From a virus: a DNA stretch of 64,000 bases. Below the pieces are notes generated by a model that was given only the letters and a program-made list of their open reading frames with translations, searched no databases and was not told where the DNA came from. Positions 21,989 through 37,200 of this stretch are shown here, piece by piece; the stretch's first letter is position 1; each line of letters begins with the position of its first letter. The position numbers were made by a program, and so were the translations under genes. The stretch covers positions 37,021-101,020 of the IMG/VR virus record IMGVR_UViG_3300009506_000008; one strand, written 5' to 3'.

Positions 21989-22360
21989 ATGGCAAAAGTC
22001 TACTCGGAAACAGATGACGTCTTCGACCCTCTCATCCAAGGCATAACACAGGACGAGGACCACGAAGAGGCTGGCCGGGTAATCGAGAGGGAATTGAAGA
22101 AGCGGGGGATTGATCCCGCTCTCGTTACCTCGGAGGATGGCATCGAGTACCTGAGGCGTCTGTCAGTTCTGTACGCTTCACTGTATCGGTGTCGGCTGTC
22201 GATGTCGGATGAAGGGGATTCTTACCATGTGCGGGTTGTAGATCTCAAGGAGCAATGGCAGGACGCCCTGGACGAAATCACGTATGAGGGACTACTGGGA
22301 AAGATTCCCGATTCAACAGGCACGTCGCTGCTGGGATCGGTATCAGTCAAGCGAGGGTAA
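21989..22360 (+). CDS. Putative head-tail adaptor
   Basis: Small helical protein ending SVSVKRG; position in neck module. Confidence 0.65.
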   Translation: MAKVYSETDDVFDPLIQGITQDEDHEEAGRVIERELKKRGIDPALVTSEDGIEYLRRLSVLYASLYRCRLSMSDEGDSYHVRVVDLKEQWQDALDEITYEGLLGKIPDSTGTSLLGSVSVKRG

Positions 22361-22361
22361 A

Positions 22362-22787
22362 ATGCCACCTGCGGCAATCGTACATTGGAGCATGAAGGCC
22401 GGGAGAAGCGAAGACTTCACCCGGTTCCAGTTTCAACAGTACGACTACACTTGTCGTGCCTTCAACATTCCCTTAGTCCTAGTTGACGAGTTCGATTCGT
22501 TCGGGCTTGAAGTATTGAACGGTATCTTCCCTACCTTGGTCCAAGCAGTTTCCCTATTCCCTCGCCACATTCCTGTCTACATGGATAAAGAGGCTGAGCA
22601 CCGCCTCCAAGATGTAGAGTTGCCTGAACAGAGTGTGTTCATTGTCGGCCCTGATTTCGGAAGTATGGAAGATAAACCGGAACACGCTTTCAGAATCAGA
22701 GTTGATTATCCTCGCATGGAGCAGGAACTGTGGTCTTGCAGTGTGTTGGCGATCTGTTTATTTGAGTGGAGTCGCCAATGGCCGTAG
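22362..22787 (+). CDS. Divergent SPOUT (TrmL/SpoU-like) methyltransferase-fold protein
   Basis: SVFIVGPDFGSM...RIRVDYP...ELWSCSVLAICLFEWSRQ aligns by eye with TrmL LMFGPETRGL...IRIPM...SMNLSNAVSVVVYEAWRQ; 141 aa. Confidence 0.72.
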   Translation: MPPAAIVHWSMKAGRSEDFTRFQFQQYDYTCRAFNIPLVLVDEFDSFGLEVLNGIFPTLVQAVSLFPRHIPVYMDKEAEHRLQDVELPEQSVFIVGPDFGSMEDKPEHAFRIRVDYPRMEQELWSCSVLAICLFEWSRQWP

Positions 22788-24370
22788 CAACTAATCTGAC
22801 CACCGTCGATTCCTGCGAGGGGATCACTGGATGGAGCGCTCATAACATTTCAGGTGCCGTAGGCACATTGGGTGCCATCCAAGCTAGCGATGAAGAAGCC
22901 CCTCCCGTTGAGGGAACTTACTGTCTCTCGTATGATATTGACATAGAAAACGGGGGATATGTTTACGAGGTCAATGCTAGCGGGGAGGATTGGTCTGCCC
23001 AGACTGCCTACATTTGGTTGCTGTGCATGACGGCAGCATCTCTCCAGGTGCTGACTCCGGGTAGCGGACAAAGCGGAGTTTACTTCATAGCCATAGATAC
23101 CAGCGGAAACGCTGGTTACTGGCATGTAGGGGGTTCAGACACATACAGTGGCGGATGGAAGTGTTTCACTTGCTACTTTGGGAACACCCCGGATACCAAT
23201 AACGGTACCAATCCCACGATGTCTTCTATTCGATATGTTGGGATAGGTACGAACCACCTTTCCAAGTCTAAAGCCACTCATAACGTCTTCTTCGATTTCT
23301 TCAGAAAGGGAAATGGAGGAATCACGGTTACTGGAGGATCTTCTGGTACTCCGTTGACGTGGGACGACATTGTATCGGGTGACGCGAGTATCGCGGCGGG
23401 CATCATCCGAAAGCAGGGAGGTGTTTACTTCGTCCAAGGTCAGATTGTCTTCGGCGATGGTACCGGATCGACTGACACATATTTCGATGACGAAGGTCAG
23501 ACCATCGTGTTCGAGGGCAACGAGCACGTGGCCAATGATACCTATGGTTTGCAAGTCGTAGAGAACGGGGCAAGCAACCTAACCAGCTTCGTCATAGGAA
23601 ACAAGACGGGTGGACAGGGGTTGCAGGGGGGCTCGATCCTCGGGGCTTTGCCGTGGGACTTCGATGCCAGTGACGAGGACATTACCAAACTTCTCATCTA
23701 TGGAGCGGTCCTTCAGAACTTCAGGACGTTCGATCTGCCGTCCAATGCTACCGACCGCGAAGTCTTAGGATGCAATTTTCTGGACGGTGGCGAGATTACA
23801 CCCAACACTATCGTTTTCCAATACTGCAATGTCATCAATGCAGACGCTAGGGGACTGAAGCTGGAGAGTACCAGTCACAATATGTCGTATTGCAACTTCA
23901 TCTCCAATCCTCACAGCATTCACATAGACACGGCAGGCACGTACACCATTAGCGGGTGCAAGTTCTTTGGATCTGACGGTTCGTCTACGTATGATTTGGA
24001 GAATAGCAGTACGGGCGCGGTTACAATCAGTGCGACAAATGACTCCGACATAGCTGACTATGAAAATACTGGAGGAGGGTCGGTAACAATTCAGAATCAG
24101 AAGTCGCTCACTATCGGGACAACATCCAATCCGTTGGTGGCGAACAGTGAGGTGAGGATCTATCGTACGAGTGACGATGCTGTGTTGGATGGGGTGGAAA
24201 ATAGTGGAACCACGTTTGCGTACAGTTACAATTACACCGGTGATACTGACGTGTACGTTCACATCATTCACCCGTCCTATGTGTGGGAACGACTAGACTT
24301 GACGTTACTAAGCACCAACCAAGCGGTTCCGGTCAAACAACGGCCAGACCGGATGTATTCTAACCCGTGA
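22778..24370 (+). CDS. Virion-associated protein: N-terminal beta-sandwich, beta-helix, C-terminal Ig-like domain ending DRMYSNP
   Basis: Repeated xxCNF/xxCKF beta-helix rungs; overlaps the SPOUT gene by 10 nt. Confidence 0.75.
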   Translation: MAVATNLTTVDSCEGITGWSAHNISGAVGTLGAIQASDEEAPPVEGTYCLSYDIDIENGGYVYEVNASGEDWSAQTAYIWLLCMTAASLQVLTPGSGQSGVYFIAIDTSGNAGYWHVGGSDTYSGGWKCFTCYFGNTPDTNNGTNPTMSSIRYVGIGTNHLSKSKATHNVFFDFFRKGNGGITVTGGSSGTPLTWDDIVSGDASIAAGIIRKQGGVYFVQGQIVFGDGTGSTDTYFDDEGQTIVFEGNEHVANDTYGLQVVENGASNLTSFVIGNKTGGQGLQGGSILGALPWDFDASDEDITKLLIYGAVLQNFRTFDLPSNATDREVLGCNFLDGGEITPNTIVFQYCNVINADARGLKLESTSHNMSYCNFISNPHSIHIDTAGTYTISGCKFFGSDGSSTYDLENSSTGAVTISATNDSDIADYENTGGGSVTIQNQKSLTIGTTSNPLVANSEVRIYRTSDDAVLDGVENSGTTFAYSYNYTGDTDVYVHIIHPSYVWERLDLTLLSTNQAVPVKQRPDRMYSNP

Positions 24371-24385
24371 TAGGAGGTACCAAGC

Positions 24386-26023
24386 ATGGCCAAGATTACC
24401 GACCCCGATAGCCTAACCAGATGCACCACAGGTCAGTTAGGGACGGACGGGAACTTGGAAATCGACACGACCAACCATACTCTCGGTCTGGCTGCGTACG
24501 GGTCGCTTTCCGATTCTGGTTCGTCCGCCACAAACGGAGTCAGCCTTCAAGCGGTGTACTCCAAACTCAAGGAACTGTGGAAGTCGGAATCGGATCTCCC
24601 GGTGGAAAAGTTCCCCATCGAGGCGCTTCAACCAGACAAGTACGAAGTCAAGAACGGCTGGACGTGGAAGGATGCTAACACGAGAACACTTCTGCGTGAC
24701 GGCGGCTGGGCTGTACTAGACACTTCCGAAGTCACTCAGAATGCCGAGGAAATGTTCATGAACGTCATCTCCCTCGGTTCGTTCGATGACAGCGCGAACG
24801 ACTTGGCGTACTTCCAGCGTACGGATGGAGGTGATCCGGTAGACTTCGACTTCAACGGCGAGGTTAACCAGGGCGTCCAGATCTATCAGGACGACAATGC
24901 GGATGGCACGCCAGACAACGACTGGCGCGACTACTTCGTCATGTTCCTGCGCGAGGAACAGAAGACGTATGACCGGTACGACCTGATCACCGAGCAGGGC
25001 ATCAGCCAGCTGACATACATCACGTACAAGTTGCCGTTGTCCAACGGCACGGACCTCAAAGCGTCGGTGACGGACTTGACCATCGACTCCAACACCGATT
25101 ACGACCCTGAAGGCGACTACGCGAACATGACCATCGAGTGGTTGTACGGATCGGCTGGTCGGTTCAACATTCGGGGCAATGCTGCGATTGACACTTACGC
25201 TGTGGATGACGTGGTCAAAGACGGCGACTCTCCGGCGCGGTGGGCGAAGTGTACGGGTGCTGGCACGATCACGGGCGGTGAAAGCGGTCCTTACGCATCC
25301 TTCACCGGTACTGCGACTTGGGCTGCTTACACCGAGGGCGAACACCAAATCGGTACCAGTTACTACGCTTTCACCGTCGAGATCGACTTCGATTCCAAGG
25401 TCATGCAGAAGGGTTACGAGTTCGTCCAATGGCGACTCCGCAACCCGGTTGGGCAGGACATTGACGACAACGCCACCGGAACCTACGTTGGTAAGATCGC
25501 GCCCGAGCTTCTGTACTACATCGGTGACGTACTTCACACGATGCCGGAAGTTTGGATCGCCAATTACAACTCCGGTGACGTGAACAGCATCGTGTTCCAC
25601 GATCACACAGACACTGGACGACAGTTCCCGTATACTGCATCCATTACCCTCAACTTCAACCAGAACTTGCAGGATGATAGTGGACCTGCTGAGTACTGGC
25701 TGTTCTTCCTCGATCCCGAGGGCGATGGCTCGACCAACATCTGGCCGGGACAGAATGCCATCGTTGTGGACGATGACACGACAGCCAACATCGAGGGCAA
25801 CATTTCCGGTCCCAGCGTCTCCAAGGGATTCGCAATCGACACCAACACTCAGGGTTCCGAGACGAACTACACCACTGCGAGCGGTCCAGTTCCTGTTGTG
25901 GCTGTAGCGGCTGGAACAGACAAAGCGCAGTACGTGTTCCAGACCGGCGTAATCGACCGTACCACAACGAACAGCATCACGCTCAATGCCGCACTGGAGA
26001 GAAACTACTCCAACCCGGCATAA
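24386..26023 (+). CDS. Abundant virion structural protein, putative filament subunit, ending ERNYSNPA
   Basis: SD AGGAGG; capsid-like codon bias; followed by a strong hairpin. Confidence 0.75.
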   Translation: MAKITDPDSLTRCTTGQLGTDGNLEIDTTNHTLGLAAYGSLSDSGSSATNGVSLQAVYSKLKELWKSESDLPVEKFPIEALQPDKYEVKNGWTWKDANTRTLLRDGGWAVLDTSEVTQNAEEMFMNVISLGSFDDSANDLAYFQRTDGGDPVDFDFNGEVNQGVQIYQDDNADGTPDNDWRDYFVMFLREEQKTYDRYDLITEQGISQLTYITYKLPLSNGTDLKASVTDLTIDSNTDYDPEGDYANMTIEWLYGSAGRFNIRGNAAIDTYAVDDVVKDGDSPARWAKCTGAGTITGGESGPYASFTGTATWAAYTEGEHQIGTSYYAFTVEIDFDSKVMQKGYEFVQWRLRNPVGQDIDDNATGTYVGKIAPELLYYIGDVLHTMPEVWIANYNSGDVNSIVFHDHTDTGRQFPYTASITLNFNQNLQDDSGPAEYWLFFLDPEGDGSTNIWPGQNAIVVDDDTTANIEGNISGPSVSKGFAIDTNTQGSETNYTTASGPVPVVAVAAGTDKAQYVFQTGVIDRTTTNSITLNAALERNYSNPA

Positions 26024-26045
26024 GGGCATATCCTTCAGGGTTAGT

Positions 26046-26073
26046 TGGCCGACTCCTTTCGGGGAGTCGGCCA
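26046..26073 (+). terminator. UUCG-loop hairpin after the 545-aa gene
   Basis: TGGCCGACTCCT-TTCG-GGGAGTCGGCCA. Confidence 0.65.
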
Positions 26074-26090
26074 CTTGATGGGAAAGAACG

Positions 26091-27389
26091 ATGGCCGATC
26101 CCGTAACCTTCGACGGACCAGGGAACCAGATCAACGTCGATTTTGGTGTGACGGAGATCGACGTTCGCCGGGATCTGTACAGTGCTTGGAAAAGATGGGT
26201 GATTACTGGAGAGGGGGCCAAGTACATGCCCCTCATGCGGACGGTTGCTGGTGACGATCTCGGTGGAGGGAAGAAGCTAGGTTCTGCTTACTTCATGTTG
26301 GAAGGGTGCAAGATCAAGCCTCACGAAGCTAGCCACACGTTGAATGTTACCGGTAGCTTGTTCGTGGAGAATGCGGCAACGTACGGGGATGACCCGTTTA
26401 TTCCTACCACGGGAGCTTACACAGTCAGCATCAGGTCTGCAACTTCTGAGGTCTTGTTGGCAGATGTCGAAGAGACCAATCTCATCCCTCATCTAGGAGC
26501 CATCTACTACGACGAGAACGCCAACAATACCGGAACTGTAGTAGGGACTGATGGGGTTCCCGGCAATCCTGTTAGTTCTGAGGCAGCGATTCACGGGTTA
26601 CACGATCAATCAGGTCTAAACCTTGTGCGTATTATGGGGACGCTAACGTTATCCGAGGATCATGCCGAACCGTGGATGTACGAGGGATTGAATCCTTCGT
26701 CTATGTTGAACATGGATGGGTACAGTGTTGACGGTGGTCGTATCTCCCGAATGGGTGTTACTGGACAACAGGGCGGGAGCGGACAAGTTCAATGGGATAT
26801 GGTGGTATGTTCCGGGGTAACCAACGCTTTTGTATTCGGTGACAAGGTATGGCTAAAGGGCGACTTAGAAGTCAGGGCCGGTAGCCATGTCCTAACCAAC
26901 GTATTCGATTCGGTGCCTGGAGATGACGAACCTGTCCTGTCCTTCGGGAGTTCTTCTGCTACCGAAGTGAACATTCAGAACTACCGTGGCGAGCTAGAGA
27001 TTGCCAACATGGGGGCCAACCATAAGATCGAGTTCGCCGGTTCCGATGCGGAGATCATTATCCTAGCCAGTTGCACCGGGGGCACGATTGAGGTTTACGG
27101 GTCGGTGTTGGTAGTAGATCAATCTGGGGGTGCTGTAACGGTCATAGACGAACGCCAAACAGCCGATGCGACAACCACCGCCGATGCTGTTTGGGCTCAT
27201 GCGACGGCTACCTCGTTCCTCAGCAAGATTGGCAGTCTGTGGAACAAACTCTGGCCTAAGAAACGCACGTTCGTCAAGGATAGCGACACGCAGTACACTG
27301 AAACGATCTACGAACAGGACGGAGTTACCCCGGAGGCTTCATTTACTCATACCAAGTCCGGGGATGACGAGTCGGTGGACCGTGTATGA
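26091..27389 (+). CDS. Virion-associated protein, N-terminal domain apparently paralogous to the 545-aa protein
   Basis: VTFD...DLYSAWKRW...YFMLEG; central beta-solenoid-like region; ADAVW motif. Confidence 0.75.
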   Translation: MADPVTFDGPGNQINVDFGVTEIDVRRDLYSAWKRWVITGEGAKYMPLMRTVAGDDLGGGKKLGSAYFMLEGCKIKPHEASHTLNVTGSLFVENAATYGDDPFIPTTGAYTVSIRSATSEVLLADVEETNLIPHLGAIYYDENANNTGTVVGTDGVPGNPVSSEAAIHGLHDQSGLNLVRIMGTLTLSEDHAEPWMYEGLNPSSMLNMDGYSVDGGRISRMGVTGQQGGSGQVQWDMVVCSGVTNAFVFGDKVWLKGDLEVRAGSHVLTNVFDSVPGDDEPVLSFGSSSATEVNIQNYRGELEIANMGANHKIEFAGSDAEIIILASCTGGTIEVYGSVLVVDQSGGAVTVIDERQTADATTTADAVWAHATATSFLSKIGSLWNKLWPKKRTFVKDSDTQYTETIYEQDGVTPEASFTHTKSGDDESVDRV

Positions 27390-27955
27390 ACAAGAGCGCC
27401 TTGACAGACGGGGGGTTCGGGCTATTCGACGGTCAAGCCTTGTCCGTTGGTACGGACGGGGGAATCTGGTTCAGTCAGTGGTCTTACCTAGACGTTCCGG
27501 TGGGTTTGAACTTAGACATCCGCTGGGACATATACCAGATCATCGGGAAGGACACGGAACTAGCTTGGAACATATACACCGTGATCGGTGTATCGTCCTC
27601 CGTGCTTTGGGATCTCTTCCATTTGGTGGGGGTCAACTCCCGGTGGTATTGGGATCTGGATGGTCTGAGGGCTCGGACTCCTTCGCCGGATGCCCGAGAC
27701 AGAACGATCATCGTACCCGCTGCGATAAACCGCATCATTGTTGTTCCTGCGGACGTGGAGACGATGATTGCCGTTGGTCGGACGTTTGGAGAGGTACAGA
27801 GAGGGCGGTCCACCTCCGCTGTCCCGACCGGACGACGAACTGTCAACGTTCCTACCGAGTCAAATGTGTCAAAGGTAGGAACACCGGCAGGTTCGACTAC
27901 CGTGAAATCAAAACGCACTTCGGTAGCAGTGGAGGCACAGGACAATGAGCGCTGA
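27386..27955 (+). CDS. Putative fibre/whisker-like structural protein
   Basis: ~14-aa W-D-I/L repeats then RT-hydrophobic-VP repeats; ATGA overlap. Confidence 0.65.
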   Translation: MNKSALTDGGFGLFDGQALSVGTDGGIWFSQWSYLDVPVGLNLDIRWDIYQIIGKDTELAWNIYTVIGVSSSVLWDLFHLVGVNSRWYWDLDGLRARTPSPDARDRTIIVPAAINRIIVVPADVETMIAVGRTFGEVQRGRSTSAVPTGRRTVNVPTESNVSKVGTPAGSTTVKSKRTSVAVEAQDNER

Positions 27956-28232
27956 CAACTGGACGAAGCAACCGAGTGAGGTGCTTGACTTCTACTTCGA
28001 CTTCTCTGTGTGGTTGACAAGTGTGGGAGAGACTTCGCTTGAGAGTGCGGTTGTCACAGTAGCCCCTACCGGACTGGACCTAGACGATTCTGGGATAGTG
28101 AGCTCTACGCGGGTTCAAATGTGGTTCTCCGGGGGATCCAACGGGACGGCTTACAAGGTCACGTGTGTCGGGACTACTCCCGGTGGCAGGACCAAAGAAT
28201 ACGAGAACTGGTTAGTGGTGAGAGATACATAA
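27945..28232 (+). CDS. Small Ig-like fibre adaptor-type protein
   Basis: KQPSEVLDFYFDFSVWL...SGG..G..YKV....T.GGRT.E pattern common in phage neck regions. Confidence 0.7.
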   Translation: MSADNWTKQPSEVLDFYFDFSVWLTSVGETSLESAVVTVAPTGLDLDDSGIVSSTRVQMWFSGGSNGTAYKVTCVGTTPGGRTKEYENWLVVRDT

Positions 28233-28741
28233 TGGCGATCCTAGCTGGCAACCTAGAGGTCCACCTTTCTGGTGGAGCTGGGAATACCGACCCGGATGCA
28301 AGTCTGGGAGGGGTGATTTCGCCGACGGAGATTGTTGACGCCACTCCTCACAATCTGTTCGGGGAGATCGACGGTGATATGGCAGCGGCGGGAGGTACCA
28401 CCTACCGTTGCATCTACGCCAAGAACGCGCACGGCTCGCTGACGTGGAAAGCGGTGAAGACATGGATATCCTCTCAGACTCCGAGTGCTTCTACGTCAAT
28501 CGAGATCGGGATAGGAACGTCAGCGGCGGGTGGGACAGAACAGACGATTGCAAACGAGACTACTTCACCTGTGGGGGTATCGTTTGCCAGCCCCTCAGCC
28601 AAGGCACAGGGACTTGCACTTGGAGACATTCCTGCGGGATCTCACAAGGCGATATGGGTAAAAAGGGTTGTAACGGCTGGGGCTTCGGCATATACTAATG
28701 ATGGATCTGTGATCCGTATCGAGGGCGATACGGCTCCGTGA
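28232..28741 (+). CDS. Virion structural protein (169 aa)
   Basis: LSGGAGN.DP.ASLGG, NLF, YRCIY.KN, AIWVKRVV pattern; TAATG overlap. Confidence 0.75.
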   Translation: MAILAGNLEVHLSGGAGNTDPDASLGGVISPTEIVDATPHNLFGEIDGDMAAAGGTTYRCIYAKNAHGSLTWKAVKTWISSQTPSASTSIEIGIGTSAAGGTEQTIANETTSPVGVSFASPSAKAQGLALGDIPAGSHKAIWVKRVVTAGASAYTNDGSVIRIEGDTAP

Positions 28742-28783
28742 GTAGGTTAGCGTGGCGGACGCGAGCCTGCAAAGGAGTAGGGG

Positions 28784-29272
28784 ATGGCCAGTCTAAAGTT
28801 GATTTTGAGCGGCATGGTATCGGCATTAGAGTCAGATACTCTGCTGGATACCTTTGCCAAGACGCTCAAAAAAGACGAGCCTGGGAGCGCCGGGCGACTG
28901 GTCGTGCTAAAGGGGAATGAGTTCCTCGCACGCGAGATCCCCCTGGAAAACTATCCCTTTACGATGTTTGTCATTGGGGATGAAATCGGGCAGGACTATG
29001 ACGCACCCGGAAGGTCCGTCAGACGCCAGTGCGATGTTCATTTCGCGTTCTTTGACAACAACACGTCCAGGGGTACTGACCGGGCTATCGACTTCGAGGA
29101 AAACATGGTGAGGGTGCTAGGCCGCTTCCTTTCCATGTCTGTAGTGGGTCCTAACAACCCCGATGGGTTGATACGGGACTTTGACGTAGGCCTCATCCTG
29201 GTAGATCGGGATGTCAACCGCCCGAAGGTGTTTCGGACCCTGCCGGTGGAGTTGGAATACACTACGGGCTAG
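28784..29272 (+). CDS. Putative tail terminator
   Basis: Size, YPF motif, position before the tail tube gene. Confidence 0.55.
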   Translation: MASLKLILSGMVSALESDTLLDTFAKTLKKDEPGSAGRLVVLKGNEFLAREIPLENYPFTMFVIGDEIGQDYDAPGRSVRRQCDVHFAFFDNNTSRGTDRAIDFEENMVRVLGRFLSMSVVGPNNPDGLIRDFDVGLILVDRDVNRPKVFRTLPVELEYTTG

Positions 29273-29500
29273 GTGGCAAGGAGACAGTTCATGTGGACAA
29301 TCAACTGCGGAGGTTGCGGTGAAACTATCCGCTCCAGCAAGGAACCTGGTCTCAAGGCGGACATTGCCTGCAAGTGCGGCCATACCACTTCCTACGATCC
29401 CAACGCGGTAGTAGACGAGCCCGAGGTCGCTGAGGAGGAGGAGGTTCCAGAGGAACCGGAAGAATCACCTGCGATCTTCAAACGCAAGCGGAGGAAATAG
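29273..29500 (+). CDS. Small zinc-ribbon protein with acidic tail (alternative start 29291)
   Basis: CGGC...CKCG. Confidence 0.65.
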   Translation: MARRQFMWTINCGGCGETIRSSKEPGLKADIACKCGHTTSYDPNAVVDEPEVAEEEEVPEEPEESPAIFKRKRRK

Positions 29501-29503
29501 AAC

Positions 29504-30223
29504 ATGCCCATCATCAAGGGAAAAGGCACTTTCATGACCCTGATTTCCGGGGCGTATAAGGGCTCGTTCTTCACCGGCGGGTCCAACGACGTATGGGTCC
29601 AGTCGTTGAGTTACGGACCCGCGTGGAAATCGGAAACGCAATCGGCCTTCGGAAGCAATGACCCGGTGTCCGTTGACGACACGTACGACGGCATCAGTTG
29701 TAGCTTCGACATCATCGAAACTGCGTCCAAGATGGCCTTGGAGATCCTCACCCGGCAAACGATTGGATCGGGTGTCGGATTTGACCCGTCCCTGTTCAAT
29801 ACCGCGTACCTGGTGGCGAACTTCAAAGACACGAAATGGGTCACGGGTGGTGCGGCTGCGGATGAGTACATCGGTTCCGTACTTCTCAAGGGCTTGAAGG
29901 TCGTCGCCGCAGATACGTCGAGTGCGGTTGACGGTGTTCAGACCAAGAAGTTCGATTTCGACGGAACGGGTGTCATCGAATACTCGCTGCCGCTCCTGGT
30001 TGACATCTTCACGTCGGCCGGTGGTGGCAATGAAGCGTTCACCCTGAGCGAAACTGCTTCTGCGTATCCCACTGGGGCCTACGCGCAGCTGGTGATGGTG
30101 GAGGACGCCGTGCAATCCAAGGCGGCTGGTGACTACACCGAAACGGCGACTGCGGTGACCATTGTCGCTGACATCGGCGCCAGTAAGACCGTCACCGTCA
30201 TTTACCCGTACGTGCCCACGTAA
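29504..30223 (+). CDS. Major tail (tube) protein
   Basis: Position before chaperone and tape measure; high-expression codon bias; downstream terminator. Confidence 0.78.
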   Translation: MPIIKGKGTFMTLISGAYKGSFFTGGSNDVWVQSLSYGPAWKSETQSAFGSNDPVSVDDTYDGISCSFDIIETASKMALEILTRQTIGSGVGFDPSLFNTAYLVANFKDTKWVTGGAAADEYIGSVLLKGLKVVAADTSSAVDGVQTKKFDFDGTGVIEYSLPLLVDIFTSAGGGNEAFTLSETASAYPTGAYAQLVMVEDAVQSKAAGDYTETATAVTIVADIGASKTVTVIYPYVPT

Positions 30224-31285: not shown

Positions 31286-31292
31286 GGTGCCT

Positions 31293-34200
31293 ATGGCAAC
31301 TGGTGGAAGTGGAAAGGGCAAGGCGGCCAAGCTATCGGTTATCATAGAGGCCATTGATAACTTTTCAGAGGAGTTCCGCAAAGCGTCAGAAAATGCGGAA
31401 CGTTTTTCTGAGGCCCTTGATAAGGCATCTGGTTCGTACAACGCTTTCGTCCAGACCATCACTGCGATCCGGGGAGAGCTGACACGTCTCGGTGAAGAAG
31501 TCGATGTAGTCAAGAAAGCCCTCCAGAACCTCCGCAAGTCAGCCCAGTCTACGGCCCAATCTCAGGACAAGATGGGAGAGGCGGCCAAGGACACGGCAAA
31601 AGGTCTGAAGGATGTAGGTGAAGCGGCTGACAAGGCCGGGGACAAGTTAGATAGCGCCACCAAGGATACAAATGAGCTGAAGGAGTCGATGGATCAGGCT
31701 AAGGATACCCTACAGAAGGTAGGTAGGGCATTCCTGGCGTTGACCGCGGCTTCTCGTGCTTTTGCTCTTACCAAGCAGGTTGCTGGGGTATTCGCTGATC
31801 TGTCTGGTTCCTATGCGGATCTGGAATTACAGATCAAACGGATCGAAGCTATTTCCGGGGCCAGTGCCGATGCGATGTTGGGCGTAGCCAAAGCCGCTAC
31901 CAGTGCCGACATTGCAATGAAAGGCTTTGCTGGTGCGGAAGTAGCGGAGACGATGTTTGAATTCGCTCGTGCCGGTCAAACCATTGAATCCAGCATCATC
32001 GCCCTTCCAAGTATCACTTCTTTTGCCGTCGCCGGTACGCTAGATCTCAAGGACGCATTGAACACCGCTCTCGGTGTCATGTTCTCCTTCAAGACCGGTG
32101 CCGACGGTCTGTCCAAGTCCTTCGATATTATGACCCGAGCGGTGAACACGTCTCGCTTGGGTGCGGCAGAGTTCTCTGATGCGATTCGTACGGGCGGCGC
32201 GGCGGCTCAGATTGCTAACCAAGATTTGGCTAGCTTCTTGGGCGCAATCCGGTCCATGCGCGAGATCGGGATCACTGCATCCATGGCCGGTACTGCGTTC
32301 AAGACGGCTATGATGCAATCGATCATCGGACCTGCGAAGGATGCGCAGGATGTCATAGCCAAGTACGGTCTGCGGTTTCGTGATGCGGCGGGCAACGTTC
32401 GTCCATTCGCGGACATCATCGAGGAGTTAGAAGTCAAGCTCGGGGGGCTGTCGAGGGTTGCACGTGACGCAGCTTTGGCGGACTTGTTCGGGACACGCGG
32501 GATCCAAGCTGCCGTTGCCGGGTTGAGTGTTGGTAGTAAGGCGTTGCGAGCGTGGACACAGGACCTCAGAGACGCAGGGGACGAGACGGATCGGGTAGCG
32601 AACGTGATGCTTGAAGCCTTGTTCCAGAAAGTCAAGGCTCTCGGGGCAACGTTCGAGAATTTCAAGGCTGTCTATGGCGAGACGATGGCCCCGTTCGCTT
32701 CGGATCTCGTAGCTTGGTTGACTCGACTGTTGCAATCGTTCATCGAGCTGGACGATTCGGTCAAGAAGGGGCTTCTCGTTACGTTGGGAGTGGCGGGATT
32801 GGCGGGGGCATTGCTGGCTGTGGCGGGGGCAGCGGCAGGTGTCGTGGCTGCGATCTCGTTGATCACCGGCCTGTCGGCAGGGGTCATCGTAGGGATAGGT
32901 GGAATCGCTCTTGCGCTATCCGCAGCCATCGGGGCTCTGGTTGGATTTTCTGCGGCGGCTGAGGATGCTTTCAAGATTGTACCGGAAGGGTTTGACAAGC
33001 TGAAGAACGAAGCCGACCAGATTTCGGAGGCTTCTAAGTTCCTGGCAGCGGCTCTGAGAGAAATCCAGGAGTCGATTGGGGAGAATACTCTTCAGTTCGA
33101 GAACACTGCCGCAACGATCCGCGATCTGCGCAACTTGGGTACAGAATTCAACAAGCTTCATGGGAATGTGGTAGAGGGATCTGAGAAGCATCAACGATAC
33201 CTTCAGGTACTGAATGCTATCGGTGGATACCTACCGTCCGTGAAGAAACTGATCGAGGACGAAGCTGTCACGTTCGAGAATGTGAATGCGGCAATTCAGG
33301 CTGGGGTGGAAGAGAGGCTTTCCGGTCTTGAGAAGATGCGGGACAGCCAAGAACTTCTGCTGCGCCAGGAACAGGCGAACGTAGAAGAACAGATCAAGGT
33401 CAACAAGGGCAGGCTGGACAATATCAAAGCCTCTATGAAAGCTGAAAGGGGAGAGTACAACAAGCAGAAGGCTTTCCTTGATAGGATGGGTACCGAGTTG
33501 GGTAGGGGATCTTTCTATCAGGAGATCAGCCGTACCCAAGGAGGTCGAGCCCAAGACATCGTTGCTGATGTGGAGAGGATGATTGAGAGGGCTCGTGAGT
33601 ACGTAAAGACCCACGAGGAGCGCGAGGCAGCTTGGAAGAAGTCTCAGGAAGCTGCCCAGACGGCTCTCGATGCTGAGGAAACGAAGCTCGTAGAGGTCAA
33701 GAAGAAACTTCAAGAGCTTCTCCAGTTCGAGGGAGCTGAAGGGTGGTTTGCGAAGATTATCAGGGATCTCTTCGGTAAGGGAGGTGTTGAGCAACTATCC
33801 GAAGAGATGCAGAAGATCACCGACAATGCTTTGACCTATTGGGAGAAGTATCTCAGATCTCAGATTGTCCTAGCTCCGAACGATGCAGCCAAGAAGAAAG
33901 CCGAAGACGAACTGAACAAGTTCCGGGCTGACTACTTGGCTTTCTTCGATCCCTCGACGGGATTGTTCAAGTACGATGACGACTTCTACAAGTTCTTCAC
34001 CGGCATCCAGGAGAAGCTGGTAAAGGTCACTCAGAAGTACGACAACTTCTTCAAGGATCTGGCCGTCGCCGTCAGACTCGAACAGGATGCGGACAAGGCT
34101 GAGAAGAAAGCCGAAGAGACTGCCAAGAAGATCGCCAAGCATTACGAAGACTCGGTGATCAAGACGGTACAGGTTCTTCAGCAGCTCATGAAGGCTGGGG

Positions 34201-37200
34201 AGATCGACCCAGATCAATATGTCGAAGCTCTGCGTGCCTTGGAGGAAAGCTACTCGGCCAGCGGGAAGTCGCAACTCTCTACCATCCTCAAGATCAACGA
34301 TGCCTCGAATGACGGTGTCAAGGATCAGATGGAACAGAACACGCGGCTGTTCAGGCTGCGCGTTCTCAATGAGGAACAGTACCTCGCTCTCCAGGAGTCC
34401 TATATCGCTCTGTGGTCTGGCAATGAGGAGGGTCGAGTTGAGCAAGAAGCGAAGGTTTATGAACAGATAGCGAAGCTACGCCAGGCCGATCTCAATGCCG
34501 ATGTGAAGGCTGCGGAGGCCAAGCGCCGACGAGGTGAGGGATCGTACGCAGACGTTCTTGACGTGCTTGCTACTTACATTGCGCAGGCGACCGACGGGAA
34601 TGAAAAGCTCATTGCTCTGAGGGAACAGTGGATCGAGAAGTACCTGTCCACCGAACAGATGGCGCAAGAGGAGTCTGACAACACTCGACGGTTCTTGTAT
34701 CAGGTAGGAGTCCTTACCACCGAGGAGTACAAAGCTCAGTTGGAGGAAAGGCTCTCCGCATTCAAGGGTAATGAGCAGAAGAGACAAGCCCTTGCCAACG
34801 AGTACAAGAAGCTGGTTGAGGACACTCTGTACAAAGAGAACACCAGCCTGTTCCGAGCACGCGCAATCAGCGAAGAGCAATATATCAATACGCAGTTGGC
34901 CTTTCTATCTGTTTGGGAGAAGAATGAAGCCAAGCGGATCGAAGCGTCCAGGAAGGTGTACGATGAGGTAAACAAGGTCAGGAAGAGTGACTACGACAAC
35001 GAGGTCAAGGAAGCTGAGAGAAGGATCTCCCTCGGGCAAGCCACGACAGACGACCTGATTGCAATCAACGATAGATACCTCTCCAAGGTAAGGTACGACA
35101 CAGATCAATCCAGGAAGTTCTTCACCGAATTGGCCGATGATCGTGTTGCCTTGGAGCAGCGTGTTCGAGACGAGTCTACGGCTACGATGAAGTGGGAAGT
35201 CGATATGGGGTATCGTACCATATCGGAGTACAAAGCCCACTTGGAGAAGCGGCTTGCTTCCTTCAGAGACTTTGGAGAGAAACGTCGTAGCTTGATGTTG
35301 GAACTGCAACAAGTAACGGAGCAAGCAGACTTTATCAAGCCGTTGGCCGAACAGGATTCCTGGATCTCTCTCGTTCAGACGAAGATCCAAAGCATGACCG
35401 GGGCCTATGAAGCCCTTGGTCATAAGATGACCGCCTCCATGAAGACAGACTTGCTGGAGGAGCAAGCCGATTGGTATGAGGTGCTCATCGAGAAGCAGAT
35501 TCAAAACATCGAGCTTTTGATCAAGAGGGCGCAAGCAGAAAAGGATACTGTCAAGAAGAACACCTTCCTCCAAGAGGCGTTAGAAGCAGAGCAAGGCGTT
35601 TACCAGTCTCTCCAAGAGTTCCAAGAGTTCGGTGCTAAGTTCCCCGGTCGGTTCGGATCTGAGATTCGGGCAGTGACCCAGGATGCGATTGATGCACTGG
35701 ATAGGATCGGGGACAACATTACCGATACCATAAACGGGGTGAACAACACGCTGTTCAATACACTCCGTGACATGGATCAGACTCGGGTTCTCCTCTCGCA
35801 GATGGCTCTTGAGCGAGAGAACATCAAGCTGTCCACCGAGGATCTGGCTTTGGTGTTGAGGACCTCCCAGGAGGTTGCAAACAAGCTCGGTGAGTCGGTC
35901 CCATCTATTGAAGAGGTTGTCACCGCTGCCCGTTCGCTCGCCGGTAGGATAGACGATGGCGGAGCGGCTTTCGAGCGTTCCAGTAGAGTAGCTCAGGACG
36001 CTGCTACGATCCTGATCCAGCCGTACAATGACCTGAGGACGCAGCTGGATTCGATGATCGCTTCCGCTGAGCAGATGACCTCGAACTGGAGAGAGGGCGC
36101 GACCAAAGCGGCTCTGGGATTCCAGATTCTCGGTACAAAGATGGACCCGTTGGAAGAGCGGATGGGTCAATGGCTCGCGAGCACCGAGCCTGTCTCGGAT
36201 GGACTGGACTTCCTAGCTGAGAAGTTGAACATCGGCAAGGACGCCATCGAGGAATTGAACAGGAAGTACGGGGATGCCAAGGACGAGGTAGGGGGAGGGC
36301 TTGAGGAACTTCGACAGGCATTGGGAGGGGCTGAAGAGGGAACTGCAAAGGCCAAGACAGCTTCCGAGATCATGGCGGAGGCGGCAGAACAACTTCGGTT
36401 GATTGTAGGTCAGCAAAGCTCGGCCAGTGACGCGGCGGGGAATGCCGCAACCGTCTTCAGCAATGCAGCGGGAGAGTTGACTACAGTCATTCCTCAGATT
36501 ACTTCTGTGTCCGAAACCACTGCCGGTCTTGCCGGGACGATGGAGACAGCTTCTGGCAACTTGACGACTGCGGTAGGTCAGTTACAAACAGCCGCCCAGT
36601 CCACCGAAGGGATTTCTCGGGCCGCTCAAGTTGCGGTGTCTCGATTGGTAGAGTTGCTGCCCGACGTAGCCGGATTGGCCGGTGATGTTGTTTCCTCTGC
36701 TGGCAGACTAACGTCCGCGTCCAACTCTCTGTCCGGTGTGTTTAATCAGGTAGATTCCTCGGTAGGGGACTCTACCGGGAACTTGGCCGATGCAACTGGA
36801 GAACTTACCTCGACCACCGGCGGTCTTCAAGATGTGTTGAACACGGCTCGGGATGCTTCCGGTACTTTGTCAGAGGCTTCGTTGGATCTGTTGACATCTG
36901 GAGGAGTGCTCGGGGACCGTCTCGGAGAGCTACAGGGCGCAGTCACCGTTCTAAGGGAAGCCACAACGGGACTGGCTAACATCCCTCCCGAGTTGCAGGT
37001 TGCTTTGCAGAACGTTGAAACCTACGTAGGCAACCTGACGGGGGCTTCGAACCAGCTAAATGATGCGGCTGCGAGATTCCCCGAGCTATCTAGGTCGGTA
37101 GAAAAGGCTTCGAATCAGTTCGGTACGGTAGTTGGGGAACAGTCGGCTCTGGTAGATCCGTTGAGAGCAGTGGCTGCTGGAAACCGAGATGCTGCCTCGG

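What the first reader, a model, noticed from the sequence alone, without database searches (positions are those of the whole stretch)
22362..28741. Candidate virion filament (pilus-like) cassette with tip / polymer / anchor logic inserted in the neck module
Seen: seven genes sit between the head-tail adaptor and the putative tail terminator. The 530-aa protein (22778) ends DRMYSNP and the 545-aa protein (24386) ends ERNYSNPA, a shared C-terminal motif. The 545-aa and 432-aa (26091) proteins share an N-terminal pattern: LEIDTTNHTL/VTFDGPGNQI, AVYSKLKELW/DLYSAWKRWV, YEVKNGWTWK/YFMLEGCKIK. So protein A has only the C-motif, B has both, and C has only the N-domain. B also has a perfect SD, capsid-like codon bias and its own downstream UUCG hairpin, like the capsid and tube genes, implying high copy number. 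Inference: the C-terminal R-x-Y-S-N-P strand docks into the N-domain of the next subunit, giving an A-(B)n-C chain. A would be a beta-helix tip, B the polymer, and C the cap anchored to the virion via the small downstream fibre/adaptor genes. This is analogous to strand-exchange pili, but phage-encoded.
Basis: partly seen in the sequence, partly recalled or inferred. Interest (0 to 1): 0.9.

Follow-up and report, generated by a model that had tools for sequence, protein, structure and literature searches.

The report
Syn5-type phage horn filament cassette
Three neighbouring genes of this long-tailed marine-sediment phage are relatives of the genes for the unexplained "horn" on the head of cyanophage Syn5. 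Their matching end-pieces, found in about 180 other phage sequences, suggest they snap together end to end into an extra virion filament.

Summary
A (22778-24370) and B (24386-26023) both end in [DE]R-x-Y-x-N-P. B and C (26091-27389) share an N-terminal domain (profile-profile probability 96%, E 4e-9).

B is a full-length homologue of Syn5 gp53, A's last 120 residues match gp54, and C's N-domain matches gp55. From my memory of Raytcheva 2014, gp53 and gp54 are the Syn5 horn proteins. This scan has already met the cassette in at least 14 other genomes.

Across 178 loci the gene order is A-B-C or B-A-C. The tail motif occurs only on A (105/154) and B (146/178), never on C (0/133) or on other ORFs.

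- The A and B tails change in concert.
- B's tail positions co-vary with its N-domain.
- B has the strongest ribosome-binding site and capsid-like codon use.
- An AlphaFold2 fold of the natural in-frame A-to-B read-through places A's tail module on B's N-domain with pTM 0.85.

A plug-and-socket chain A-(B)n-C is therefore the best reading. Not shown:

- B-on-B polymerisation
- which end is the base
- where it attaches (head or neck)
- any pilus-type strand exchange

The parts
22362..22787 (+). g1, 141 aa, unknown function. It overlaps the start of A and is an occasional fourth cassette member.
   Evidence: No Pfam or PHROG hit. Homologues lie upstream of the module, on its strand, in L120 (1.7e-13), L115, L116 and L128; in L120 and L115 the coordinates place them next to A.
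22778..24370 (+). A, 530 aa, a gp54-like plug-only protein with a variable body. It is a candidate end-piece (tip or base).
   Evidence: The C-terminal 122 aa match Syn5 gp54 510-621 (3e-9). A-type proteins of about 300-2500 aa occur in 143 of 178 loci. The Atlas places it in unnamed viral clusters, with weak LamG and CarboxypepD_reg leads.
24092..24367 (+). Plug module of A: a transthyretin/CnaB-like beta-sandwich (A 439-524) followed by the tail PDRMYSNP.
   Evidence: VIA-align gives Z 9.6 to 8qox_B and Z 7-8 to CnaB2, transthyretin and carboxypeptidase D domains. hhalign to B's C-terminus gives E 9.5e-6. Tail pLDDT is 92 in the tethered model.
24371..24378 (+). Shine-Dalgarno TAGGAGGT of B, 7 nt before the ATG.
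   Evidence: It is the same core as the capsid gene's SD.
24386..26023 (+). B, 545 aa, a gp53-like protein with both socket and plug. It is the candidate major repeating subunit.
   Evidence: Full-length homologue of Syn5 gp53 (1e-36). At least 279 relatives. AF2 pLDDT 94.3, pTM 0.89. CAI 0.683.
24443..24835 (+). Socket (gp55-like N-domain) of B, about residues 20-150, holding the YSxxKExW helix. The conserved N-arm MAKIxDPDxL (24386-24415) precedes it.
   Evidence: hhalign B 20-135 to C 1-112, Prob 96%. The N-arm is conserved in nearly all 120 homologues. MI partners of the tail lie here.
25628..26020 (+). Plug module of B: a transthyretin/CnaB-like sandwich (415-539) followed by the tail LERNYSNPA.
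   Evidence: VIA-align Z 7.8 to the same top chain, 8qox_B. The tail is conserved in 146/178 B proteins.
26046..26073 (+). 12-bp hairpin with a UUCG loop after B. No U-tract follows, so it is probably an RNA stabiliser or processing site and not a classic terminator.
   Evidence: -30.8 kcal/mol, z -3.86.
26091..27389 (+). C, 432 aa: a socket-only gp55-like N-domain (1-121; 26091-26453) plus a roughly 300-aa extension that may be beta-helix-like. It is the candidate other end-piece.
   Evidence: C 4-121 matches Syn5 gp55 7-122 (4e-9). No tail motif in 0/133 C-type proteins, and C is always the last gene. Long-form C relatives occur in L016, L022, L025, L064 and others. The Atlas gives POMP/DUF1565-like leads for 97-356.
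27386..27955 (+). D, 189 aa, unknown. It is not part of the conserved cassette.
   Evidence: Only a weak phrog_19249 minor tail hit (0.018). No homologue in about 190 loci or in the PDB.
27945..28232 (+). E, 95 aa, a GP4 gp77-type fibre-tail adaptor or collar protein. It is a possible local docking ring and a backbone gene.
   Evidence: Pfam PF23148, 1.3e-18, 67.7 bits against a cut-off of 27. PDB 8JOU_D, 7e-7. gp77 is compared with collar proteins in PMC13730344. Absent from the other loci.
28232..28741 (+). F, 169 aa, phrog_13135. It is probably neck-associated and a backbone gene.
   Evidence: phrog_13135, 2e-28. Its homologue in Vibrio phage nt-1 lies between gp15 and gp16, next to wac, gp13 and gp14.

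Best explanation
Genes A, B and C (with g1 as an occasional companion) are a Syn5-type 'horn' cassette. They are homologues of Syn5 gp54, gp53 and gp55, and here they are inserted into the neck gene set of a 101-kb long-tailed phage from marine sediment. They encode an accessory virion filament built from two conserved connectors.

- **Plug:** a C-terminal transthyretin/CnaB-like beta-sandwich ending in [DE]R-x-Y-x-N-P, carried by A and B.
- **Socket:** the gp55-like N-domain with a YSxxK(E)xW helix, carried by B and C.

The plug of one protein docks non-covalently on the socket of the next. This gives a polar chain A -> B -> ... -> B -> C. B is the abundant middle subunit, and A and C are the two variable end-pieces.

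**Shown:** the homologies, the exclusive distribution of plug and socket, concerted evolution of the two tails, and B's expression signals.

**Predicted:** the A-plug to B-socket contact.

**Inferred by homology only:** the B-to-B and B-to-C contacts, and more than one B per chain.

**Open:** which end is virion-proximal, and whether it sits on a head vertex as in Syn5 or on the neck next to the gp77-like collar protein E. Its function is probably reversible adhesion to surfaces or glycans, and is also open.
For: 1. **Homology to Syn5.**
   - B to gp53 is full length at 1e-36, with an identical LERNYSNP end.
   - A's C-terminus to gp54 is 3e-9, and gp54 ends DRQYNNPV.
   - C's N-domain to gp55 is 4e-9.
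   - The three Syn5 genes are adjacent.
2. **Module conservation.** There are 178 loci with B and 125 with all three genes. The order is ABC in 91 and BAC in 31, with C always last.
3. **Exclusive connector distribution.** The motif is on 105/154 A, 146/178 B, 0/133 C and 1/3311 other ORFs. The own genome shows the same.
4. **B and C share the N-domain** (Prob 96%). A and B share the same C-terminal fold, with the same top PDB chain 8qox_B at Z 9.6 and 7.8.
5. **Concerted tail evolution.**
   - The presence of the terminal N in B and in A is distributed 93/16/6/4 (both/neither/B only/A only), Fisher 1e-11.
   - On the B tree there are 11 independent contrasts. A goes the same way in 6.4 and the opposite way in 0.1, with a median sign-test p of 0.03.
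   - In L089 both tails are extended, in L105 and L027 both are poly-Thr, and in L007, L021, L113 and L138 both lose NP.
6. **Co-variation of tail and N-domain.**
   - In 186 B sequences the tail positions have 30% of their top long-range MI partners in N-domain columns 50-95, against 9% background (P about 2e-4).
   - Cross-protein MI points to homologous columns: tail -3 with B K62 and with C K34, and A-tail with B 80-87.
7. **AF2 of the natural in-frame read-through.** The chain is A 401-530, the linker WQEVPS, then B 1-155. The alignment holds 25 paired read-through rows from other loci.
   - Mean pLDDT is 91 and pTM is 0.85.
   - All five models score 89.7-91.0.
   - A-tail pLDDT is 92.
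   - I expect a pTM this high only if two near-equal domains are placed confidently against each other.
8. **B looks abundant.**
   - Its SD equals the capsid's, and its CAI of 0.683 compares with 0.54 for A and C.
   - Across 102 loci B's SD is stronger than A's in 59 against 13, and stronger than C's in 56 against 15.
Against:
- The tethered AF2 fold has no negative control, and no coordinates or PAE were available. The 6-residue linker forces the two domains to be close.
- In the B monomer model the residues just before the tail have pLDDT 97 and the last five 81. Part of the 'plug' may therefore simply pack on its own domain.
- The MI results are not corrected for phylogeny. A contrast test for socket columns that follow loss of the tail N gave no clear signal.
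- SD scores for A and C may be lowered by wrong start calls.
- Gipson 2014 (PMC4102127) places gp55 on hexamers over the whole Syn5 capsid, which does not fit a single base for one horn. That assignment was made from a 4.7-A map plus bioinformatics.
- That gp53 and gp54 are the horn proteins rests on my memory of Raytcheva 2014. Only the title could be verified.
Confidence: 0.55

Rival explanations
1. A fixed three-piece fibre. One A unit plugs into one B unit, which plugs into one C unit, as in the T4 long tail fibre gp34-gp35-gp36-gp37. B does not polymerise on itself. It is only an extension link, and each plug is specific for one socket.
For: - The same plug/socket distribution and the same AF2 A-to-B result fit this reading equally well.
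- The A and B tails differ consistently (D against E at -3, a variable residue against N at -1). The B and C sockets differ too, with C one residue shorter in the YSxxK-W helix. This could encode pair specificity.
- Earlier scan notes on unrelated plug-and-socket fibres often ended with a fixed order and no polymer. These are leads only.
Against: - B alone has capsid-grade SD and codon use here and the strongest SD in most loci. Equal stoichiometry does not predict this.
- The B tail co-varies with B's own N-domain.
- The A and B tails change in concert, as expected if they share one kind of socket.
Confidence: 0.27
2. A and B are two separate appendages that share one dock. Each is anchored by its C-terminal tail to the same receptor, either C's N-domain or a capsid or neck site. 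B's N-domain has another role, such as binding the capsid like the proposed gp55 knob. No chain forms.
For: - Concerted evolution of the two tails is expected if both bind one common site.
- gp55 was assigned to capsid-surface knobs (PMC4102127).
- High B expression would also fit many capsid-bound copies.
Against: - AF2 places A's tail module on B's N-domain with pTM 0.85.
- The A-tail co-varies with B N-domain columns 80-87.
- From my memory of Raytcheva 2014, antibodies to gp53 and gp54 both label the single horn and not the capsid surface.
Confidence: 0.12
3. The shared tail is not an assembly connector. It is a folding cap of the transthyretin-like domain, or a tag read by a chaperone, protease or export step. 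The shared N-domain is only common descent.
For: - Residues up to -2 of the tail lie within or right after the last strand of the sandwich and are modelled with high confidence in the monomer.
- g1, a small protein of unknown function, sometimes travels with A and could be such a helper.
Against: - This reading does not explain why the motif is absent from all C-type proteins and all other ORFs.
- It does not explain why A and B lose or extend the tail together in independent lineages.
- It does not explain why the tail co-varies with the N-domain.
Confidence: 0.06

Closest known systems
Cyanophage Syn5 genes 53-54-55 (Autographiviridae, Voetvirus): horn proteins gp53 and gp54 (Raytcheva et al. 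2014, J Virol 88:2047) and the proposed capsid knob gp55 (Gipson et al. 2014, PMC4102127)
   Same: - B is a full-length gp53 homologue with the same C-terminal LERNYSNP.
- A shares gp54's C-terminal module and its DR-x-Y-x-NP end.
- C shares gp55's domain.
- The three genes are adjacent and co-oriented.
   Different: - The host virus here is a 101-kb phage with a 2601-aa tape measure, not a 46-kb T7-like podovirus.
- The order is A-B-C, not B-A-C.
- A's body is unrelated to gp54's.
- C carries a roughly 300-aa extension.
- The cassette sits among neck genes, next to a gp77-like collar gene.
- Where the product sits on this virion is unknown.
- In four literature searches of the held library I found no paper describing how the Syn5 horn is assembled.
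T4 long tail fibre (gp34-gp35-gp36-gp37) and other segmented phage fibres
   Same: It works like this: separately encoded pieces join end to end through dedicated terminal connectors, and the neighbouring genes lie in assembly order.
   Different: - No sequence relation was found in the Pfam or PHROG scans.
- Here one piece carries both connectors of the same system, so it could self-chain.
- Trimeric coiled or beta-helical shafts were not seen in B, which is a string of beta-sandwich domains.
Chain-like fibres of podophages GP4, VP1 and A1002 (PMC13730344; PDB 8JOU)
   Same: These are phage fibres built from many copies of a small subunit. GP4 uses gp77, the homologue of gene E here, as the fibre-tail adaptor.
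   Different: In those phages, fibre dimers are strung on a separate 'rope' protein by beta-sheet augmentation. No rope protein or fibre-dimer homologue was found here, and E does not co-occur with the A-B-C cassette elsewhere.
Bacterial pili: chaperone-usher and type V (strand exchange), and Gram-positive sortase pili (CnaB domains)
   Same: - The polarity logic of tip, repeating shaft and base is the same.
- The plug-bearing domain has a CnaB/transthyretin-like fold, with Z 5-8 to pilin domains.
   Different: - There is no sequence homology.
- There is no chaperone, usher or sortase, and no LPxTG.
- The Z scores are in the range of a common arrangement.
- No evidence was found for an incomplete fold completed by a neighbour's strand.

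Membership tests
Syn5-type horn cassette (gp53/gp54/gp55) | gp53 homologue, full length, with the conserved N-arm and LERNYxNP C-terminus | tested here: met
   B against Syn5 gp53: two BLASTP segments at 1e-36 covering 1-308 and 320-544, with an identical C-terminal LERNYSNP.
Syn5-type horn cassette (gp53/gp54/gp55) | gp54-type protein: a variable body plus the conserved C-terminal module ending DRxYxNP | tested here: met
   A 409-530 against gp54 510-621, 31% identity, 3e-9. The bodies are not alignable.
Syn5-type horn cassette (gp53/gp54/gp55) | gp55-type domain protein encoded last in the set | tested here: met
   C 4-121 against gp55 7-122, 35% identity, 4e-9. C is last in 122 of 125 complete loci whose order was scored.
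Syn5-type horn cassette (gp53/gp54/gp55) | Products form a slender projection on the capsid vertex opposite the tail | not testable with these tools
   This needs EM or immunolabelling of this uncultured phage.
GP4 gp77 fibre-tail adaptor (Pfam PF23148), for gene E | Match to the family profile above Pfam's gathering score, and to the solved chain | tested here: met
   67.7 bits against a cut-off of 27, profile positions 1-80 of 84. PDB 8JOU_D, 7.1e-7.
Chaperone-usher / type V strand-exchange pili | Subunit with an incomplete Ig-like fold completed by a donor strand of the next subunit | tested here: inconclusive
   The plug-bearing domains of A and B align to complete transthyretin/CnaB sandwiches. 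The socket N-domain was not searched alone, and no coordinates of the A-B model were available.
Chaperone-usher / type V strand-exchange pili | Dedicated chaperone and usher, or a processing protease, encoded with the subunits | tested here: not met
   No such Pfam or PHROG family was found in the ten proteins from 21989 to 30223.
Sortase-assembled Gram-positive pili | LPxTG sorting signal and a sortase gene | tested here: not met
   There is no LPx[TSA]G in A, B or C, and no sortase hit. The fold likeness to CnaB domains is only Z 5-8.

The most novel reading that the evidence does not exclude
B (the gp53 family) is a true self-polymerising, non-covalent filament subunit. Its C-terminal plug docks on the N-domain of the next B, A and C cap the two ends, and filament length is set by the B:A:C ratio. 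That would make the Syn5 horn, and its relatives in hundreds of uncultured phages of all tail types, a phage-encoded pilus-like organelle with swappable tips. No structure or assembly rule has been published for such an appendage class.
Probability: 0.4. Interest if true: 0.8.

Novelty: new variant of a known kind. Interest (0 to 1): 0.6.

Why it matters
The Syn5 horn has been known since 2007 and its two proteins since 2014. In the literature I could search, I found no description of how it is built, what it does, or how widespread it is.

- **Distribution.** The same three-gene kit is present in a long-tailed sediment phage and in about 180 other phage or MAG contigs, from a few kb up to 366 kb. 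Extra head- or neck-borne filaments may therefore be common.
- **A testable assembly rule.** The rule is that the plug ([DE]RxYxNP after a transthyretin-like domain) docks on the socket (gp55-like N-domain). It explains which proteins carry which end and why the two tails evolve together.
- **Practical uses.** The rule gives a way to annotate hundreds of 'hypothetical' virion genes. It also defines a small peptide-and-domain pair that could be tested as a protein-joining tool.
- **An open assignment.** It reopens the placement of gp55 as a capsid knob.

Tried and rejected
No multimer test was made.
- **Pairwise BLASTP** of A/B, B/C and A/C found nothing significant. Only profiles show the relations.
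- **Pfam and PHROGs** gave nothing for g1, A, B, C, G or the tube gene.
- **PDB sequence searches** of A, the B profile, C, D and F found no relative.
- **Foldseek of the B model** against the PDB gave only low-TM (<=0.17) Ig-like hits, mostly pilins and the TIE protein. BFVD gave Syn5 gp54 at TM 0.23 and nothing else useful.
- **First block alignment** for the tethered fold (A3) was misaligned by MAFFT and was discarded.
- **Summing APC-corrected MI** over tail rows is zero by construction, so that output was discarded.
- **Independent-contrast search** for B columns that change when the tail N is lost gave no clear socket column. E63 changed in 3 of 10 contrasts against 0.5 expected, which is not significant after multiple testing.
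- **The R(-2) state** has too few independent changes to test.
- **The search for related loci with the 120-sequence alignment** failed on metagenome and genome collections. It was repeated with 12 sequences. The metagenome scan used the tail and the N-arm as search patterns, so its loci are biased towards canonical ends.
- **Papers.** Raytcheva 2014 and Pope 2007 are not held.
- **RNA evidence.** No RNA holder was listed for the region.
- **Earlier-notes look-up by sequence** found nothing.
It was not pursued further.

Full report
**Setting**

The window is the right-hand 64 kb of a 101,020-bp IMG/VR virus record with direct terminal repeats. Its DNA is held almost only by marine-sediment metagenomes.

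The plus-strand late operon is, in order:
- portal (15444)
- head-morphogenesis protein (17331)
- scaffold (18753)
- major head protein (19632)
- a Neck1/tail-completion-like protein (21434)
- the region in question
- a probable tube gene (29504)
- a 2601-aa tape measure (31287)

This is a very long-tailed phage, and the finding lies inside its neck gene set.

The seven ORFs are:
- g1 (22362-22787)
- A (22778-24370, 530 aa)
- B (24386-26023, 545 aa)
- C (26091-27389, 432 aa)
- D (27386-27955)
- E (27945-28232)
- F (28232-28741)

A ends PDRMYSNP and B ends LERNYSNPA. BLASTP finds nothing between A, B and C, but profiles do.
- B's N-terminal 135 residues against C's N-domain gives 96% probability, E 4e-9.
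- The C-terminal 125 residues of A against those of B give 83%, E 1e-5.
- Three control pairings give under 0.5%.

B's expression signals are also as described.
- Its SD is TAGGAGGT, as for the capsid gene.
- Its CAI against capsid plus tube is 0.683. Scaffold scores 0.722, A and C score 0.54, and the other genes, apart from the two reference genes, score 0.49-0.62.
- A 12-bp UUCG hairpin follows the gene.
- Hairpins also follow the capsid and tube genes.

**What it is**

A tblastn search of phage records with B hit Synechococcus phages Syn5 and S-TIP28, virus Rctr197k, an uncultured Caudoviricetes record (MW202577) and Maribacter phage Panino.
- B aligns over its whole length with Syn5 gp53 and has the same last eight residues.
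- A's last 122 residues align with the end of gp54, which ends DRQYNNPV.
- C's first 121 residues align with gp55.
- Genes 53, 54 and 55 are adjacent in Syn5.

To my knowledge gp53 and gp54 are the two proteins of the Syn5 'horn', the slender projection on the vertex opposite the tail (Raytcheva et al. 2014). I could verify only the paper's title. gp55 was proposed as a capsid knob from a 4.7-A map plus bioinformatics (PMC4102127). The horn is added after the tail (PMC4238041).

None of A, B or C has a relative in the PDB by sequence.

I treated these as leads only.

**How general the pattern is**

B has at least 279 relatives, in which the extreme N-terminus (MAKIxDPDxL) and the extreme C-terminus (LERNYxNP) are the best-conserved parts.

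I fetched about 190 loci from viral, metagenome and genome collections and classified their ORFs with HMMs.
- 178 loci have a complete B, and 125 have all three genes.
- The order is ABC in 91 loci and BAC in 31, with C always last.
- The strict C-terminal motif is on 105/154 A-type and 146/178 B-type proteins, 0/133 C-type and 1/3311 other ORFs (that one is a B fragment).
- A-type proteins range from about 300 to 2500 aa.
- C-type proteins are mostly 130-270 aa, with a long-form subfamily like the one here.
- In the phage's own genome, nothing else carries either connector.

Contig sizes run from a few kb to 366 kb. The named relatives include T7-like podoviruses, so the kit moves between virion types.

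D, E, F and G have no homologue in any of these loci. g1 has homologues upstream of the module, on its strand, in four loci with E<1e-3.

**Structure**

AF2 folds B with pLDDT 94 and pTM 0.89 as a string of mostly beta domains. No solved structure matches the whole.

Residues 415-539 form a transthyretin/CnaB/carboxypeptidase-regulatory-type sandwich, with Z 7.8 to 8qox_B. A's residues 439-524 have the same fold and the same top hit at Z 9.6. The plug is therefore a domain plus a tail, not only a peptide. These Z values are in the range of common arrangements and do not show kinship with pilins.

**Evidence that plug meets socket**

1. *The A and B tails evolve in concert.*
   - Presence of the terminal N in both, neither, B only or A only is 93/16/6/4.
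   - On a tree of B there are 11 independent contrasts. A moves the same way in 6.4, the opposite way in 0.1, and does not change in 4.5 (median sign-test p 0.03).
   - There are also joint extensions and joint poly-Thr replacements.
2. *B's tail co-varies with its own N-domain.* In 186 B sequences the tail columns have three times the background share of their strongest long-range MI partners in N-domain columns 50-95 (P about 2e-4, not corrected for phylogeny).
3. *Cross-protein MI points to homologous columns of B and C*.
4. *A and B happen to be in the same frame, separated by TGA TAG and four codons.*
   - I read this through to get a natural tether: A 401-530, six residues, then B 1-155.
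   - I built a block alignment that includes 25 equally natural in-frame read-through rows from other loci.
   - AF2 gave pLDDT 91 and pTM 0.85 in all five models, with the A tail at pLDDT 92.
   - For two domains of near-equal size, I take this to mean a confidently predicted mutual placement.

The caveats on the last point are that there was no control fold, there are no coordinates, and the linker is short.

**Evidence that B is the repeated unit**

This evidence is indirect. B has capsid-grade translation signals here. In 102 non-redundant loci its SD beats A's in 59 against 13 and C's in 56 against 15.

B-on-B and B-on-C contacts are inferred from the homology of plugs and sockets.

**Local context**

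E is a clear homologue of GP4 gp77, the 'fibre-tail adaptor' (Pfam PF23148; PDB 8JOU_D). A recent paper compares gp77 with phage collar proteins (PMC13730344).

F's relatives sit in the neck gene cluster of Vibrio T4-like phages.

This makes a neck-borne filament possible in this phage. But the link between C's roughly 300-residue, possibly beta-helical extension (a lead only) and E is a guess. The polarity is open too.

**Verdict**

- The thing is a variant of a known but poorly understood system, the Syn5 horn cassette. It is not a new class, and not a pilus in the mechanistic sense.
- The plug-and-socket rule is the valuable part, and it is directly testable.

Noticed in passing
window 22362-22787 (g1): The 141-aa ORF that overlaps the start of A has homologues upstream of the module, on its strand, in four other loci: L120 (1.7e-13), L115, L116 and L128. 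In L120 and L115 they sit next to A. It is therefore an occasional cassette member, perhaps an assembly helper.
   Followed up: partly
window 24368-24385: A and B are in the same reading frame, separated only by TGA TAG and four sense codons. The same in-frame A-to-B layout occurs in 26 other loci. That is about what chance gives, so it is probably not a sign of read-through.
   Followed up: partly
L020, L027, L105 (related loci): In these loci A, B and, in L020 and L027, also C end in long poly-Thr/Ser runs where the usual ends would be. This may be a different, possibly glycosylated, terminal chemistry replacing the plug.
   Followed up: no
L164-L193 (genome contigs): B homologues sit on contigs binned into MAGs of Patescibacteria (Woesebacteria, Daviesbacteria, Kaiserbacteria), Gammaproteobacteria, Hellea, Cyanobacteria and a Woesearchaeota bin, including a 1.08-Mb Woesebacteria chromosome (L187). 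An earlier scan note reads such a locus as a cassette kept by CPR cells.
   Followed up: no
window 31287-39092: The tape measure protein is 2601 aa. By the usual rule of about 0.15 nm per residue, this implies a tail near 0.4 micrometres.
   Followed up: no
window 28232-28741 (F) and Vibrio phage nt-1 ORF234 (L083 7001-7549): F belongs to phrog_13135. Its relatives in KVP40-like Vibrio myoviruses lie between gp15 and gp16, in the neck and whisker gene cluster. This is an uncharacterised neck-associated family shared by a siphovirus and T4-like phages.
   Followed up: partly
Syn5 gp55 (L002 11226-11696): gp55 shares the socket domain of gp53. The published placement of gp55 as a capsid knob (two per hexamer) may therefore deserve another look.
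   Followed up: no
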